A DNA stretch of 64,000 nt, taken from positions 8,302 to 72,301 of the forward strand of contig JAIUOG010000002.1 in NCBI GenBank assembly GCA_020161725.1, read 5' to 3'. The stretch comes from Pseudomonadota bacterium (GTDB lineage Bacteria; Pseudomonadota; Gammaproteobacteria; Legionellales; Legionellaceae). The first letter of the stretch is position 1, and every line of letters begins with the position of its first letter. Shown piece after piece: positions 20,901-32,900 of the stretch. The position numbers were made by a program.

Positions 20901-23900
20901 TGCGTCGCATTATAAGAAGAGTTATTCGTCATGGTAATAAATTAAAATTACCAACGCCCTTTTTCTCTCTTTTAGTCAGCCCCCTCATTGAGGCAATGGG
21001 TGATGCTTATCCTGAGCTAATTGAAAATAAGGCTCAAATCGAAGCGGTGCTTGCTCAAGAAGAAAACCAATTTGCGAGAACCTTAGAGCAGGGATTACGT
21101 CTTTTAAAAGTAGAAATAGACCAATTAAAAAATAAAGAAATTCCAGGGGATGTCGCTTTTAAACTTTATGATACCTATGGCTTCCCTATTGATCTCACTG
21201 CTGATATAGCCCGTGAACTGGAGCTTAGCGTTGATATGCAAGCCTTTGAAGAAGCCATGCAAAAGCAACGTCAATCTTCTCAGGCAGCAAGCCAATTTGA
21301 AGTTGATTATTCTTTTGCTGCTAATCTAACGCAAATGTCTGAGTTTCATGGTTATGACAAAACAGATTTAAAATCAAAAGTAGTCAATTTACTTAGTGAT
21401 AGCAAAGAAGTTAGCTCTTTGGCTTTAGGCACAAAGGGCGCTATTATCCTTGAAAAAACTCCTTTTTATGCTGAATCCGGTGGCCAGGTTGGTGATAAAG
21501 GTGAAATTTCTACGGCCACAGCACTTTTCAGAGTTGATGATTGTCAACGTATCGGCCAGGCAATTGTTCATTATGGTGAAGTATTAAAAGGATCTTTTAA
21601 TTTAAATGATGAAGCATCTGCTGCAATTGATAATCATCGCCGAGAAGCGATTAGACTAAATCATACGGCAACGCATCTTTTGCATGCTGCACTTAAAAAA
21701 GTAGTTGGTGCTCATGTACAACAAAAAGGTTCTTTAGTCGATGCTGAACGTGCGCGCTTTGATTTCTCCCATTTTGAAGCGGTAACAGCAGTGCAGCTAG
21801 AAGAAATTGAATCACTTGTAAATGAGCAAATTCGTGCAAATAATGCTGCTCATACTGAAGTCATGGATATTGAAACGGCCAAAGGAAAGGGCGCTGTTGC
21901 TTTATTTGGTGAGAAATACGGTGATTCGGTACGTGTTTTAAGTATCGGTGATTTCTCAATGGAATTATGTGGTGGTACTCATGCAAGAAAAACAGGCGAT
22001 ATCGGTTTATTTAAAATTGTCGCTGAATATGGTGTGGCTGCTGGTGTAAGGCGTATTGAAATGATGACAGGTGCTTATGCCTTAGTTTGGGTTAATGAGC
22101 AATTAAAAACTATCGATGAGATGGCCTTAAAATTAAAAACAACACCTGCTCAAGCGAATGAAAAATTATCGCAATTTTTAGCAGAAGCAAAGCAAAAAGA
22201 AAAAGAACTACAAAAGCTTAATGAAAAATTAGCAGCTCATTCGGGGGGAGAGTTAATATCATCAGTTAAGAAAATTAATGATATTAATTTGTTAGTCGAA
22301 AAGTTAGTTGCAGTGGATGGTCAAACTCTTCGAACAACCATGGATAATCTTAAATCCAAGTTAGAGAATGCAGTAATCGTATTAATTGCTATTGATAATG
22401 ATAAAATAAGTGTTATTGCCTCTGTTTCTAAGAATCTTCTAAATAAATTACCAAAGGCTGCTGAATTCGTAAAAGAACTCTGCGGAAAAGGTGGTGGTCG
22501 TGATGATATGGCACAAGGTGGTGGGACGCTTCCCGGCGATTTAGAGCAAAGAATTAAGCGTATTGAAGAAATGGTTTCTTTGTAAAGAAGATCTATCTTA
22601 GTCTTATTACGTAGGCTAGTGCTAATAAGTACCTTGGTGCAGCGTCTTATGGCAGACCCATAAGGGGCTTCGCTCTGCGTGTTCCTGACATATTTTCTAA
22701 CCAATATTGAACAAGCAATCCCCCCTGCGGGATAGGGATTTACTTTCCAATTTTGTTCATCTTGTTGGTTAAAAATATGTCATAATTCCTCAGCGCTTCA
22801 CATAGCGCTGCCTGCCTTTTAAATGTGTATGGCGCTGATTGTTATAGAAATAATATTGAATTTAAATTACTCTGTAGAATTAAGGATAAATCAAGATTAA
22901 AGGCAACTTATGAAAAAATTTATAAATGAATTCAAACTCTTTGCTATGCGCGGCAATGTGATGGATTTAGCCGTGGCGGTGGTCATTGGTGCTGCATTTG
23001 GTAAAATTGTATCCTCTTTAGTTGATGGCATTATTATGCCGGTGATTGGTTTATTATTAGGCGGAATAGATATCGCTGATAAATCAATTAAAATTGGCGA
23101 TGCGGTTATTAAATGGGGCGCTTTCTTACAAACTATTATTGATTTTACAATTATTGCTTTCGCTATTTTTATAGCGGTAAAGTTCATTAATATGTTACAA
23201 CATAAAGAAGAAAAAAAAGAAGATGTGTTAACCAAGCAAGAAAAAACACTAGTTGAAATTAGAGATTTGTTAAAGTTGCAGAATAAAGCTATTAGCAGTG
23301 AGACAAAGCCTAAGGCTGCTGGCAAAGAAAAGAAAGCATAAAATTGATAGTACAAAACCCAAAAAGAGGTTAACTATAATGACTTTTACATTAAGTAAAC
23401 GATTAATTTTTTTAACCTTATTAACAGCAACCTCTACAGTTTTTGCAAATGATTTATTTGAATTAGTTGAAAATAGAAGTGAATTGCCTGCAATTCCCAT
23501 GCAAATGGCAGAAAATAATCTGAATTTAGTAGAACCTAAGTCTTCAGAAAAAACAAATCATCAAGAAATCATTCAAACCGAAGTGAAAGGCGATAACAAT
23601 AAGCAAAAGATGCAGGAAGAAAAAGACCGAATTTTATCACAAACCTTCACCTTTAAAGAACTTTATTGGCAAGACCTTCGTTTGCAAGGCAGTAAAACTG
23701 ATTTAACTTTTTACTTACCTCAGCCAAAGCAAATAAAATATAAAAACGCGAGCCTCAATTTAGAGTTAACTCAATCCTCTCTTTTGAAAGAAAATTCATC
23801 GCTTACTTTTTTATTTAATAACAACCATCTTCTTTCAAGCTTGGCTTTAAAAGCTGGAAATACCGCCCCTCTATTCTGGGATATAAATTTACCTAGTGCG

Positions 23901-29900: not shown

Positions 29901-32900
29901 ACCTTGGCCAGAAGAAATATATAGGCAATTAACGAGTTGTATTGCCGATATGCATTTTGCACCAACCACGTATACAGCAGAAAACCTCGTTAGGGAGGGA
30001 ATTAGTGCCAATGAAGTCTTCGTTACGGGTAATACTGTGGTTGATTTACTTCTTCAAGTAAAGCAATTAATCATGGATAAGGCCTTACAAACTGAGCTTA
30101 AAGATAAGTTTTCATTCTTGGATAGCTCTAAAAAATTAATTCTTGTTACTGCCCATAGAAGAGAAAGCTTTGGCAAATCTTTTGAACACATCTGTAAAGC
30201 CCTGGCAAGGATAGCAGAAGAAAAAAACGTTGAAATTATCTTTCCTGTACATTTAAATCCAAATGTTCGAGAACCTGTACATCAATATTTAAAAAACTTA
30301 AAAAATGTTTTTCTTATTGATCCAGTGGGCTATTTCTCAATGGTTTATCTGCAAGAACGCTGTTATATGATATTGACAGATTCTGGAGGCATTCAAGAAG
30401 AAGCGCCGACTTTTGGAAAACCTTTGTTAGTCATGAGAAATCTAACTGAACGGACAGAAGGGGTTGCAACAGGGGTATCAAAATTAGTTGGTACAGATAT
30501 GCAAGCCATCATTGATGAAACCTTAAATGTTTTGCACAATGATGCTGCTTACAATCAAATGACTTGTATAGTTAATCCTTATGGTGATGGAAAAGCAGCA
30601 CAGAGAATAGCTGATTTAATTGAAGCGAAGATGTAATTAAATTTTATTGGGTAAAATTACTAGGACGCGTGCTATATAGGATATACATTTTATGCAAATA
30701 AAAAATTCAAAAAACCATTTTGGTTTAGTCGCTATTATTTTCCATTGGCTCATGGCTATTTTGCTTATTGGTCTTTTAACTTTAGGTTTATATATGGTCG
30801 GGTTGCCAATCAGTTTGGAAAAGCTCAAGTTTTACGGTTGGCATAAAGAATACGGCATCTTGGCATTAATCTTAGTTACCCTACGCATCATTTGGCGTTT
30901 AGCGAATATTACACCTCAGTTGTCACTTCCTCTTTTGGAAAAAATTGCAGCGCGAGCGGTTCATTGGGCTTTTTACGGTTTTATGTTCGCAATGCCAATA
31001 ACTGGCTGGTTAATTACCTCAGCCGCAGGCATTCCGGCTTCTTTTTTTGGTTTATTTAACCTACCTAGTTTAATCGCTGCCAGGCCAGATTCACTTGAGC
31101 TATTTGAGGCAATTCATAAATGGATAGCTTACGGATTAATTGTCACTATTATTCTTCATACGCTTGCTGCTCTAAAGCATCATTTTATTAATAAAGACGA
31201 TATTTTAAGGAGAATGTTTCCATGATTAAAATACACTGGAAGAAATGCTTCATTACATTATTATCATTAATACCCTTGATTTGTAGTGCGGCTGTTCCTG
31301 CTTGGCAGATTGTACCAAATGAAAGCGAGCTTAACTTTAGAGCGATACAAAATGATGCTCCTATTGTAGGTAAATTTAAAACCTTCAATGGCGAAATTAA
31401 CGGCGACCCTGCTGATCTAAGCACCTGTAATATTAAAATCGTTGTAGATATTAGTTCGATATCGGATGTTTATACTCAATTAGCAGATACGCTTAAAACA
31501 CCTGAGTGGTTTAATGTTCAACAGTTTCCTCAAGCTATTTTTCAGTCAAAAGAAATCCTAAAAACAGGCGATAAAAGATATAAAATAAACGGGGTTCTTA
31601 CTATCCGTGATAAAACCTTACCAGTGACTTTGATGATTACCCAAGAAGAATACAGCCCAACCAAAGGACGAGTAAAAGGTACTACAACACTCAAACGTAC
31701 CCAGTTTGGTGTCGGGCAAGGTGAATGGACTGATACAAAAACAGTAAAAGATGATGTCAGAGTTGATTTTATATTAACCGCGGTAAAAAGTAATTAAAAT
31801 AAGATTTTTTTAAGTATTCCCCTCTCTTGTTCTTCGGGTATCCCCTCTCGCAAGGGGGGAGCAATTTGCTATTTCATGGATTATCGCAGACTTAGGTGAC
31901 ATACCCCAAACAGTCTCATGAGTAATGAATTTGTACTACAATTAAAAGGAAGAGAACAATAAGGATGAATCATGGCAGACCTCTTAAATTTAATTGCGCT
32001 GATTGTTCTATTTGGGATATTAATGTGGCTTATTAATGTTTATATTCCGATGCCTGGTGGAATTAAAAGCCTTTTAAATATAGTAGTTTTGATTGTACTT
32101 ATTATCTATGTTCTACAATTTTTTGGCTTAGTGCATACAGGCTTGCCGATGTTAAGACTGTTTAAATAGCTAAATTATTGATTAAAAATGGCTGATAGAT
32201 ATCAGCCATTTTTTTATGCAAAGGGTAATTCAGGACCTAGAGGCACAATTTGAGTTGGGTTAATTGTTTTATGACTAAAATAATAATGCTGCTTAATATG
32301 CTCAAAATTAACAGTGTCAGCGATGCCAGGATGTTGATAAACTTTTTCTAAATAAGGTTGAAGAGAAGGATAATCAATGATTCGTTTTTGATTTGTTTTA
32401 AAATGGCCAAAATAAACTGCATCAAAACGAATTAGGGTGGTAAAAAAACGAATATCGGCTTCCGTTAACTGCTTACCTACTAAATAAGCCTGTGTTTCTA
32501 AATGCTTATCAAGCTCATCCAAGGCTTTAAATAAATCTTTAAAGGCTGTCTCGTAGGCTTCTTGTGTCGTTGCAAAGCCGCATTTATAAACGCCATTATT
32601 GATCTTGTCATAAATGAAATCATTTATTTTATTGATTTCATTTTGTAATTCTTTAGGATAAAAATCATGCTCATCTTTAGTTAAAGGATTAAAGGCTGTA
32701 TTTAACTGGCGAATAATCTCAGCCGATTCATTATTAACAATTGTTTCTTCTTTTTTATCCCATAAAACAGGTACTGTAACTCGTCCAGAATAATTTTTAT
32801 TTGCTTTAAGATATAGCTCATATAAATAATTGAGTTGATAGAGCTTATCCCCAGTCGCGCCAAATTCTTTTTTAAATTCCCAGCCATTAGTTAACATATG

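What the first reader, a model, noticed from the sequence alone, without database searches (positions are those of the whole stretch)
23379..30636. Hybrid exopolysaccharide machine: BcsB-like + NfrA-like + NfrB-like + dedicated WecB
Seen: four co-directional, tightly spaced genes (gaps 47 and 15 bp, then a 4-bp overlap). They encode a signal-peptide BcsB-like protein with a C-terminal TM anchor, a TPR/beta-barrel protein ending in Phe, a processive GT2 with D,D,TED,QxxRW motifs and NfrB-type signatures, and a UDP-GlcNAc 2-epimerase. Known: in E. coli NfrB, NfrA and WecB (NfrC) make the c-di-GMP-dependent, ManNAc-dependent glycan that serves as the phage N4 receptor; wecB there lies in the separate ECA locus. 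BcsB is normally the partner of cellulose synthase BcsA. Here there is no bcsA or bcsZ in the operon. Inference: a self-contained synthase-dependent pathway in which a BcsB-like co-polymerase guides a ManNAc-containing polymer from an NfrB-type synthase to an NfrA-type pore. It would be a candidate biofilm, host-adhesion or phage-receptor glycan in a Legionella-like bacterium. I cannot tell from the sequence alone whether this arrangement has been described.
Basis: partly seen in the sequence, partly recalled or inferred. Interest (0 to 1): 0.85.

Follow-up and report, generated by a model that had tools for sequence, protein, structure and literature searches.

The report
Legionella Nfr-type exopolysaccharide secretion operon
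This is an intact four-gene operon in a Legionella-family bacterium that most likely makes and exports an N-acetylmannosamine-type surface sugar polymer when the signal c-di-GMP is present; the gene set, including the cellulose-type helper BcsB, has already been reported in Achromobacter and Acinetobacter, so it is a new member of a known kind.

Summary
Four co-directional genes (gaps of 47 and 15 nt, then a 4-nt ATGA overlap) encode:
- a full-length BcsB homologue with a C-terminal membrane anchor;
- a TPR plus beta-barrel outer-membrane protein whose barrel is distantly homologous to NfrA_C;
- an NfrB homologue (35% identity to E. coli NfrB, with DAED, TED, QRARW and an intact tandem MshEN c-di-GMP motif);
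- a WecB equivalog, the only one found in the genome.

No bcsA was found in the genome (93% complete).

The same four-gene synteny occurs in another Legionellaceae genus. A BcsB-like gene adjoins an NfrB homologue in 18 of 80 loci from several phyla. In Legionellales the conserved core is NfrA-like plus NfrB-like, and BcsB-like is present in about a third of clusters.

The arrangement is not new:
- Sellner 2021 noted a BcsB homologue in the Achromobacter nfrA/nfrB/wecB cluster.
- A 2025 paper showed that the BcsB homologue PgrD of the Acinetobacter PGR locus is needed for phage adsorption.
- Listeria Pss pairs a BcsB ortholog with a non-cellulose synthase.
- This scan has reported the same arrangement in at least 8 other genomes.

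Function here is inferred, not shown. A second BcsB-paralog/GH81/GT2/TPR operon in the genome deserves a look of its own.

The parts
23379..25694 (+). BcsB-like periplasmic subunit, 771 aa: signal peptide, duplicated BcsB-type periplasmic body, and a C-terminal TM anchor (residues 734-766) with a basic tail
   Evidence: Pfam PF03170 187 bits, 3 stretches. hhalign of its family against E. coli BcsB gives 99.8%, E 8e-29, residues 83-764 against 68-765. TM anchor. A Shine-Dalgarno-like AAAGAGG lies upstream of the ATG.
25709..25735 (+). Perfect 12-bp inverted repeat (stem-loop) in the gap between gene 1 and gene 2, with no U-tract after it on the + strand
   Evidence: The RNA fold is -18.6 kcal/mol, z = -4.1 against shuffles. 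It is not seen at the same place in the syntenic locus L030. Its role is unknown.
25742..27652 (+). Short NfrA-like outer-membrane exporter, 636 aa: signal peptide, about 9 TPR-like helical pairs (residues ~74-374), and a C-terminal beta-barrel (387-635) ending in Phe. The true start may be the TTG at 25814.
   Evidence: TPR Pfam hits. AF2 model built on 31 sequences, pLDDT 87.8. The best Swiss-Prot structural match is E. coli NfrA, E 9e-17, followed by BcsC and PgaA. hhalign to the NfrA_C region gives 91.8%, E 7e-7. The Pfam NfrA_C model itself does not hit.
27668..29524 (+). NfrB-type processive GT2 synthase, 618 aa: N-terminal TM helix, GT2 domain (DAED 162, TED 258, QRARW 321), membrane segment, and C-terminal MshEN domain
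   Evidence: 35% identity to E. coli NfrB over 529 aa, E 1e-101. NF012033 scores 485 bits and NF008411 438 bits. Motifs and hydrophobic segments.
29105..29488 (+). MshEN c-di-GMP-binding domain of the synthase (residues 480-607). The tandem 24-residue motifs occupy 480-503 and 509-532 with a 5-residue spacer, and the Leu-Gly pairs are conserved (L481 G482, L510 G511).
   Evidence: NF053729 59 bits against a cut-off of 38, and Pfam MshEN. V. cholerae MshE N-domain 5HTL, E 4e-9. Motif positions. The equivalent E. coli residues L490, G491 and L537 are needed for function (PMC8669469).
29521..30636 (+). Non-hydrolysing UDP-GlcNAc 2-epimerase WecB, 371 aa, translationally coupled to the synthase by an ATGA overlap
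   Evidence: TIGR00236 474 bits against a cut-off of 210, and Pfam Epimerase_2 E 4e-118. tblastn found no second copy in the genome.

Best explanation
This is a compact Nfr/PGR-type synthase-dependent exopolysaccharide system.

Proposed steps:
1. WecB converts UDP-GlcNAc to UDP-ManNAc.
2. The inner-membrane GT2 synthase (NfrB-like) polymerises it, alone or with another sugar, and passes the chain across the inner membrane. It does so only when c-di-GMP occupies its C-terminal MshEN domain.
3. The BcsB-like protein is anchored in the inner membrane by its C-terminal helix next to the synthase. It receives and guides the chain in the periplasm.
4. The short NfrA-like protein uses its TPR arm to take the chain and its beta-barrel to export it through the outer membrane.

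Shown here: the identity and intactness of the four proteins, their motifs, their conserved linkage, and the fact that no bcsA was found.

Inferred: the substrate, the activation by c-di-GMP, the physical contact between the BcsB-like protein and the synthase, co-transcription, and the biological role (biofilm or adhesion glycan, or phage receptor).
For: Family assignments rest.

Catalytic and c-di-GMP motifs are intact.

Linkage:
- The same four-gene order occurs in another genus of the family, with 38/53/65/61% identity (L030).
- In Legionella worsleiensis the BcsB-like gene sits divergently next to the NfrA-like/NfrB-like pair, with wecB on the other side (L034/L040).
- A BcsB-like ORF lies beside NfrB in 18 of 80 loci from several phyla. 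Nine of the ten tested pass the Pfam BcsB cut-off, and nearly all keep the C-terminal TM helix plus basic tail.
- wecB lies within 10 kb in 37 of 80 loci.

Substrate supply: wecB here is the only copy found in the genome. This fits the rule of Junkermeier and Hengge that species lacking another wecB carry one beside nfrB (PMC8669469).

Signal: the genome has five GGDEF-domain genes, so c-di-GMP can be made.

Experimental precedent: E. coli NfrB binds c-di-GMP and, with NfrA and WecB, is needed for phage N4 infection (PMC8669469, PMC8669472). Deleting the BcsB homologue pgrD, or mutating wecB (pgrF), in the A. baumannii PGR locus abolishes phage StAb3 infection, and the pgrD deletion also abolishes its adsorption (PMC12507263).
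Against: - No expression or biochemical data exist for this locus.
- About two thirds of Legionellales NfrA-like/NfrB-like clusters lack an adjacent BcsB-like gene. E. coli Nfr works without one. So the BcsB-like subunit is not a general requirement.
- The stable stem-loop between gene 1 and gene 2 could uncouple their expression.
- The synthase scores below the NCBIfam equivalog cut-offs for NfrB (438 against 1170; 485 against 537). It also lacks the roughly 115-residue C-terminal extension of E. coli NfrB.
- The first position of both MshEN motifs is Lys rather than the Arg of the motif as I recall it.
- The chemical structure of the Nfr polymer is not solved even in E. coli.
Confidence: 0.8

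Rival explanations
1. The polymer is not ManNAc-based. On this view wecB sits here for another glycoconjugate such as LPS or a capsule, and the synthase polymerises a different UDP-sugar such as GlcNAc or glucose.
For: The Nfr product has not been chemically defined in any organism (PMC8669472). 43 of 80 NfrB loci have no wecB within 10 kb. GT2 sequence does not predict the substrate.
Against: wecB overlaps the synthase stop codon by 4 nt and is the only wecB in the genome. The wecB-nfrB linkage recurs across phyla. wecB is required for the E. coli and A. baumannii glycan receptors.
Confidence: 0.12
2. The BcsB-like protein is not a partner of the NfrB-like synthase. It would serve the other GT2 of the genome (the GH81-linked operon) or act alone as a periplasmic glycan-binding protein, and its position here would be incidental.
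For: Its closest relatives by profile score are the BcsB paralogs of the GH81-GT2 operon (hhalign score 628), ahead of the BcsB-likes of alpha/beta-proteobacterial Nfr clusters (score 120). Most Legionellales Nfr-like clusters lack it.
Against: The GH81-GT2 operon has its own BcsB paralog. The BcsB-like gene recurs next to NfrA-like/NfrB-like genes in at least three Legionellaceae genera and in Coxiellaceae-labelled MAGs, in two different orientations. In A. baumannii the BcsB homologue of the NfrB-type locus is genetically required.
Confidence: 0.06
3. The cluster is silent cargo, recently acquired and patchily distributed, with no current function in this organism.
For: Only 1 of 8 other same-genus genomes sampled had an NfrB homologue, and none of 23 had an ortholog of the BcsB-like gene. 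The best ortholog is in another genus.
Against: All four frames are intact with conserved catalytic and binding motifs. G+C content matches the flanks. There are no mobile-element genes at the borders, which are mscL and cytochrome b561/YceI.
Confidence: 0.04

Closest known systems
E. coli NfrB-NfrA-YbcH with WecB (NfrC): the c-di-GMP-dependent N4 glycan receptor (NGR) system (PMC8669469, PMC8669472)
   Same: - A homologous synthase with the same GT2 motifs and tandem MshEN motif.
- A TPR plus NfrA_C-type barrel exporter.
- Dependence on a WecB-type epimerase.
   Different: - wecB is inside the operon here.
- The exporter is 636 aa rather than 990 aa, precedes the synthase, and is not recognised by the Pfam NfrA_C model.
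- There is no YbcH (DUF4434) gene.
- A BcsB-like subunit is present.
- The synthase lacks the last ~115 residues of E. coli NfrB.
- No diguanylate cyclase is linked.
Acinetobacter baumannii PGR locus pgrA-G (PMC12507263)
   Same: It combines an NfrB-like synthase (PgrC), a BcsB homologue (PgrD), WecB (PgrF) and an outer-membrane porin (PgrG). PgrD and PgrF were shown genetically to be needed for a phage-receptor glycan.
   Different: The Legionella-type operon has only four genes. It has no degenerate-GGDEF PgrA and no PgaB-C-terminus-like PgrE. I could not fetch the Acinetobacter sequences, so orthology of the individual proteins was not tested.
Achromobacter xylosoxidans nfrA-nfrB-wecB cluster with a BcsB homologue and O-acetyltransferases (Sellner et al. 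2021, PMC8669472)
   Same: It has the same four functions in one cluster. I found similar wecB/BcsB-like/nfrB arrangements in Castellaniella, Pseudacidovorax, Xanthobacter and Azorhizobium.
   Different: Those clusters use the long E. coli-type NfrA and often YbcH or acetylation genes. Their BcsB-likes are only remotely similar to the one here (hhalign score 120, against 180 for E. coli BcsB).
Listeria monocytogenes pssA-E exopolysaccharide operon (PMC4125290)
   Same: A BcsB ortholog (PssD) works with a non-cellulose GT2 (PssC) under c-di-GMP control. From my own knowledge, not checked here, the product is a ManNAc-backbone polymer.
   Different: It is Gram-positive, so it has no outer-membrane exporter. 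c-di-GMP is sensed by a separate degenerate-GGDEF protein (PssE) rather than an MshEN domain. The synthase is not of the NfrB type.
Bacterial cellulose synthase BcsA-BcsB-BcsZ-BcsC
   Same: It has a BcsB subunit with the same full-length architecture and C-terminal anchor, a TPR plus barrel exporter, and c-di-GMP gating of a processive GT2.
   Different: No BcsA, PilZ domain or BcsZ here. The best TIGR03030 match in the whole genome is 34 bits. The BcsB NCBIfam equivalog cut-offs are missed by far (88 against 750).

Membership tests
NfrB-type c-di-GMP-activated GT2 synthase | Sequence homology to E. coli NfrB across the GT2 and membrane regions | tested here: met
   35% identity over 529 aa, E 1e-101. 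NF008411 438 bits and NF012033 485 bits.
NfrB-type c-di-GMP-activated GT2 synthase | Processive GT2 signatures DxD, TED and QxxRW | tested here: met
   DAED at 162, TED at 258, QRARW at 321. These residues are invariant in an 8-sequence alignment that includes E. coli NfrB.
NfrB-type c-di-GMP-activated GT2 synthase | C-terminal MshEN domain with a tandem 24-residue c-di-GMP motif | tested here: met
   NF053729 59 bits against a cut-off of 38, at residues 480-532. Pfam MshEN. PDB 5HTL, E 4e-9.
NfrB-type c-di-GMP-activated GT2 synthase | NCBIfam equivalog score cut-off | tested here: not met
   438 against 1170 (NF008411) and 485.5 against 537 (NF012033). It is a homologue, not an equivalog by NCBI's thresholds.
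NfrB-type c-di-GMP-activated GT2 synthase | Binds c-di-GMP and needs it for activity | not testable with these tools
   Needs a binding assay. Shown only for E. coli NfrB (PMC8669469).
NfrA-type outer-membrane exporter | Signal peptide, TPR arm and C-terminal beta-barrel | tested here: met
   AF2 model with pLDDT 87.8: helical repeats at 74-374 and strands at 387-635. Signal-like stretch at residues 33-52.
NfrA-type outer-membrane exporter | Pfam NfrA_C (PF13283) match | tested here: not met
   No hit for this protein. NfrA_C is not among the 25 listed families (49 matched in all) for its 30 relatives. E. coli NfrA hits at 228 bits.
NfrA-type outer-membrane exporter | Remote homology of the barrel to the NfrA C-terminal region | tested here: met
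   hhalign of the two family alignments gives 91.8%, E 7e-7 over 168 columns on the NfrA_C region. E. coli NfrA is the top Swiss-Prot structural match, E 9e-17. The top Atlas feature hit is an NfrA_C cluster, which I treat as a lead only.
BcsB | Pfam PF03170 above the gathering score, and full-length alignment to a characterised BcsB | tested here: met
   187 bits against a cut-off of 21. hhalign to E. coli BcsB gives 99.8% over 630 columns.
BcsB | Single C-terminal TM anchor | tested here: met
   Residues 734-766 followed by a basic tail. The same feature is seen in E. coli BcsB and in nearly all NfrB-adjacent BcsB-likes.
BcsB | Partner of a BcsA cellulose synthase | tested here: not met
   No bcsA in the operon or in the genome, which is 93% complete. 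The best TIGR03030 match is 34 bits against a cut-off of 699. BcsB equivalog models score at most 88 bits against cut-offs of 750 or more.
BcsB | BcsB fold confirmed by a structural model | not tested
The assignment rests on profile evidence only.
WecB (non-hydrolysing UDP-GlcNAc 2-epimerase) | Equivalog model above its cut-off | tested here: met
   TIGR00236 474 bits against a cut-off of 210.
Nfr/PGR synthase-dependent system | Conserved linkage of synthase, exporter and wecB, with or without BcsB-like | tested here: met
   The exporter is adjacent in every Legionellales locus examined. wecB is present in 37 of 80 loci and BcsB-like in 18 of 80.
Nfr/PGR synthase-dependent system | YbcH (DUF4434) auxiliary periplasmic protein, as in E. 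coli | tested here: not met
   No similarity between any operon protein and YbcH. No YbcH-like ORF in any Legionellales locus, although one is present in 25 of 80 loci overall.

The most novel reading that the evidence does not exclude
In Legionellales the BcsB-type periplasmic subunit may be an exchangeable module. It would have been duplicated or moved between two unrelated synthases: the NfrB-type synthase here, and the GT2 of a BcsB/GH81/GT2/TPR operon elsewhere in the genome. It would also have been recruited to Nfr systems independently of the BcsB-likes in alpha- and beta-proteobacterial Nfr clusters.

The Nfr-type glycan would then be a strain-variable surface structure of Legionella that decides biofilm or amoeba attachment, or sensitivity to Legionella phages, about which I know of very little.
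Probability: 0.25. Interest if true: 0.5.

Novelty: new member of a known kind. Interest (0 to 1): 0.3.

Why it matters
- **For Legionella biology.** Full-text searches found no paper that describes an Nfr-type or BcsB-containing system in Legionella. The locus is a concrete candidate for a c-di-GMP-controlled, strain-variable surface glycan. It could be tested by knock-out in cultured species that carry it, such as L. worsleiensis.
- **For the field of synthase-dependent secretion.** The Legionellales set contrasts clusters with and without the BcsB-like gene around the same synthase/exporter core. That could help define what BcsB adds to a non-cellulose synthase.
- **Overall.** It does not change the current picture of these systems.

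Tried and rejected
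- **Word-indexed homologue search.** The search with the BcsB-like protein returned only itself.
- **Locus search seeded with BcsB-like alignments.** It failed twice because no conserved 7-10-column stretch existed. I surveyed from the NfrB side instead.
- **Single-sequence AF2 of the exporter.** It gave no barrel, with pLDDT about 20 in the C-terminus. It was redone with a 31-sequence alignment.
- **Foldseek against the PDB.** TPR proteins swamped the results. Only E. coli BcsC aligned over both domains.
- **Insertion versus loss at the mscL / cytochrome b561-YceI site.** mscL and yceI are hundreds of kb apart in other same-genus genomes, so the comparison says nothing.
- **YbcH identity.** Rejected the idea that the BcsB-like protein is a divergent YbcH. 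There is no similarity, and YbcH is DUF4434.
- **Stray cellulose operon.** Rejected, because no bcsA was found in the genome.

Full report
**1. The observation**

The spacing is 47 nt, 15 nt and a 4-nt ATGA overlap. The flanks are ordinary genes: alaS and mscL upstream, cytochrome b561, YceI and a GST downstream. G+C content does not differ from the surroundings.

The signal-peptide-like stretch of gene 2 starts only at residue 33, and a TTG at codon 25 (window 25814) is a plausible true start. A perfect 12-bp inverted repeat (25709-25735; RNA fold -18.6 kcal/mol, z -4.1) lies between genes 1 and 2.

**2. Identity of the four proteins**

*Gene 1, BcsB-like.*
- It matches Pfam BcsB at 187 bits against a cut-off of 21.
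- The profile of its family aligns with E. coli BcsB over 630 columns, residues 83-764 against 68-765, at 99.8% probability.
- It has the single C-terminal TM helix and basic tail typical of BcsB.
- It is far below the NCBIfam BcsB equivalog cut-offs.

*Gene 3, NfrB-like.*
- It is 35% identical to E. coli NfrB over 529 residues, E 1e-101.
- It carries DAED, TED and QRARW.
- It has two 24-residue MshEN motifs with a 5-residue spacer. The MshE-related c-di-GMP model scores 59 bits against a cut-off of 38, and the V. cholerae MshE N-domain structure matches at E 4e-9.
- The Leu-Gly pairs that are essential in E. coli NfrB (PMC8669469) are conserved.
- It lacks the last ~115 residues of E. coli NfrB and scores below the NfrB equivalog cut-offs.

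*Gene 4, WecB.* It is a WecB equivalog, TIGR00236 474 bits against 210. No second copy was found in the genome.

*Gene 2, NfrA-like.* This was the least certain assignment.
- Pfam sees only TPRs, not NfrA_C, in this protein. NfrA_C is also not among the 25 listed families (49 matched in all) for its 30 relatives.
- BLAST to E. coli NfrA finds only a TPR stretch.
- An AF2 model built on 31 orthologs is confident (pLDDT 87.8). It shows a TPR arm and a barrel at residues 387-635.
- Its best match among Swiss-Prot models is E. coli NfrA (E 9e-17), followed by BcsC and PgaA.
- A profile-profile comparison of the C-terminal 265 residues of this family with the C-terminal 360 residues of E. coli-type NfrA proteins gives 91.8% probability, E 7e-7. 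The aligned part is exactly the NfrA_C region.
- I therefore accept it as a short, divergent NfrA-type exporter.

**3. Does the BcsB-like protein belong to a bcsA elsewhere?**

No bcsA was found. In the whole genome (182 contigs, 93% complete) the best match to the BcsA model TIGR03030 is 34 bits against a cut-off of 699.

There is, however, a second BcsB paralog, 31% identical. It heads a different operon split over two short contigs: BcsB paralog, GH81 glycoside hydrolase, a 608-aa GT2 and a TPR protein. In a complete same-genus genome the operon reads BcsB paralog (715 aa), GH81 (728), GT2 (617), TPR protein (1038), ATP-grasp, histidine phosphatase and a receiver-PIG-L deacetylase. So each BcsB-like gene has its own synthase.

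**4. Conservation and distribution**

*Within the family.* The family includes Legionella worsleiensis: locus L034 and L040 are the same contig.
- Roughly a quarter of the 120 other sampled genomes carry a full-length NfrB homologue at 42-66% identity.
- Only 1 of 8 other same-genus genomes sampled had one.
- None of 23 same-genus genomes had an ortholog of the BcsB-like gene. They had only the GH81-type paralog.
- The best ortholog, in another genus, keeps the full four-gene order at 38/53/65/61% identity.
- In L. worsleiensis the BcsB-like gene is divergently adjacent to the exporter-synthase pair, with wecB on the other side.
- In other Legionellales the constant core is exporter followed by synthase, often with wecB and without BcsB-like. 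By my count a BcsB-like gene is adjacent in 7 of 19 Legionellales loci, counting the window and L030.

*Across 80 NfrB-homologue loci from many phyla.*

| Feature near nfrB | Loci out of 80 |
|---|---|
| BcsB-like ORF adjacent | 18 |
| wecB within 10 kb | 37 |
| Short exporter type as found here | 30 |
| YbcH-like ORF | 25 |

- Nine of the ten BcsB-like ORFs tested pass the Pfam cut-off. Nearly all have the C-terminal anchor.
- The short exporter type occurs in Legionellales, Acidobacteriota, Elusimicrobiota and Bacteroidota/Ignavibacteria.
- The long E. coli-type NfrA, often with YbcH, occurs in others.

*Relationships among the BcsB-likes.* By profile-profile score the Legionellales Nfr-linked BcsB-likes are closest to the Legionella GH81-linked paralogs (628). 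E. coli BcsB comes next (180), and the alpha/beta-proteobacterial Nfr-linked BcsB-likes last (120). This hints at exchange of the BcsB module between systems. It is not a phylogeny.

**5. What is known**

- E. coli nfrB-nfrA-ybcH with the unlinked wecB makes a c-di-GMP-dependent glycan used by phage N4. The wecB linkage in other species is already described (PMC8669469).
- Sellner et al. state that in Achromobacter xylosoxidans nfrA, nfrB and wecB cluster with a BcsB homologue and O-acetyltransferases (PMC8669472).
- In Acinetobacter baumannii the PGR locus contains an NfrB-like PgrC, the BcsB homologue PgrD, WecB (PgrF) and a porin (PgrG). A pgrD deletion abolishes adsorption of phage StAb3 (PMC12507263).
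- Listeria pssA-E pairs a BcsB ortholog with a non-cellulose GT2 under c-di-GMP control (PMC4125290).
- I found no paper that describes such a system in Legionella. The few full-text hits for Legionella with NfrB or BcsB did not look relevant from their titles and abstracts.
- Earlier agents of this scan reported the same BcsB-like/NfrB/WecB/NfrA arrangement in at least 8 other genomes, including Delftia, Pseudomonas, Verrucomicrobiota and WOR-3.

**6. Mechanism**

The most likely mechanism (confidence about 0.8) is this. WecB supplies UDP-ManNAc. The NfrB-like synthase, gated by c-di-GMP at its MshEN domain, polymerises and translocates the chain. The BcsB-like protein, anchored beside the synthase, guides the chain in the periplasm. 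The short NfrA-like protein exports it. The genome has five GGDEF genes, none of them linked to the operon.

The sugar, the gating, the contact between the BcsB-like protein and the synthase, and co-transcription are all inferred. The BcsB-like subunit is an accessory rather than a core part, because most related clusters lack it.

**7. Verdict**

The novelty is low: this is a new, compact, Legionellaceae member of a described kind of system.

The more original leads are two. One is the apparent modular reuse of BcsB between two synthase systems. The other is the second operon with GH81, which parallels bcsB-bcsZ-bcsA-bcsC and may make a beta-1,3-glucan-type polymer. I did not follow that operon beyond domain annotation.

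Noticed in passing
Own genome contigs C36 and C30 (L008:366-2462:- and L007), and L117:3939-15889 in a complete same-genus genome: A second synthase-dependent operon: BcsB paralog, GH81 glycoside hydrolase, a ~610-aa GT2 without PilZ or MshEN, and a ~1040-aa TPR protein. In the complete genome these are followed by ATP-grasp, histidine phosphatase and receiver-PIG-L deacetylase genes. It parallels bcsB/bcsZ/bcsA/bcsC with GH81 (the endo-beta-1,3-glucanase family) in place of GH8. I found no description of it; one paper search (Legionella + BcsB) gave nothing relevant.
   Followed up: partly
window 25709-25735: A perfect 12-bp inverted repeat with a 3-nt loop lies between the BcsB-like and NfrA-like genes. 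It is stable as RNA (-18.6 kcal/mol, z -4.1), has no U-tract after it, and is not conserved in the syntenic locus L030. It could be a processing or stabilising hairpin, or a protein-binding palindrome.
   Followed up: partly
window 25742-25840: The annotated ATG start of the NfrA-like gene gives a 32-residue extension ahead of the signal-peptide-like stretch. A TTG at 25814 would give a conventional signal peptide.
   Followed up: partly
L031 (G007:C1:1484000-1503999): In a same-genus complete genome the NfrA-like/NfrB-like/wecB cluster has no BcsB-like gene of its own. The BcsB-paralog/GH81/GT2 operon lies only about 12 kb away.
   Followed up: no
L032:5624-6774: In one family genome (G150) the wecB next to the NfrA-like/NfrB-like pair is split into two ORFs of 266 and 108 aa. 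This suggests a frameshift or a decaying gene.
   Followed up: no
L014 (G010:C3:52739-53203) and L015 (G014:C13:619868-620176): Two same-genus genomes have short open frames (181 and 173 aa, one with an internal stop) that match only the N-terminal part of the BcsB-like protein. They may be gene remnants.
   Followed up: no
Loci L036-L115 (survey of NfrB homologues): NfrB homologues come with two mutually exclusive exporter types. One is a short (400-690 aa) TPR-barrel protein, usually upstream of the synthase. The other is a long (1000-1300 aa) E. coli-type NfrA downstream, usually with a YbcH-like gene. Several Chloroflexota/Anaerolineae loci show neither.
   Followed up: partly
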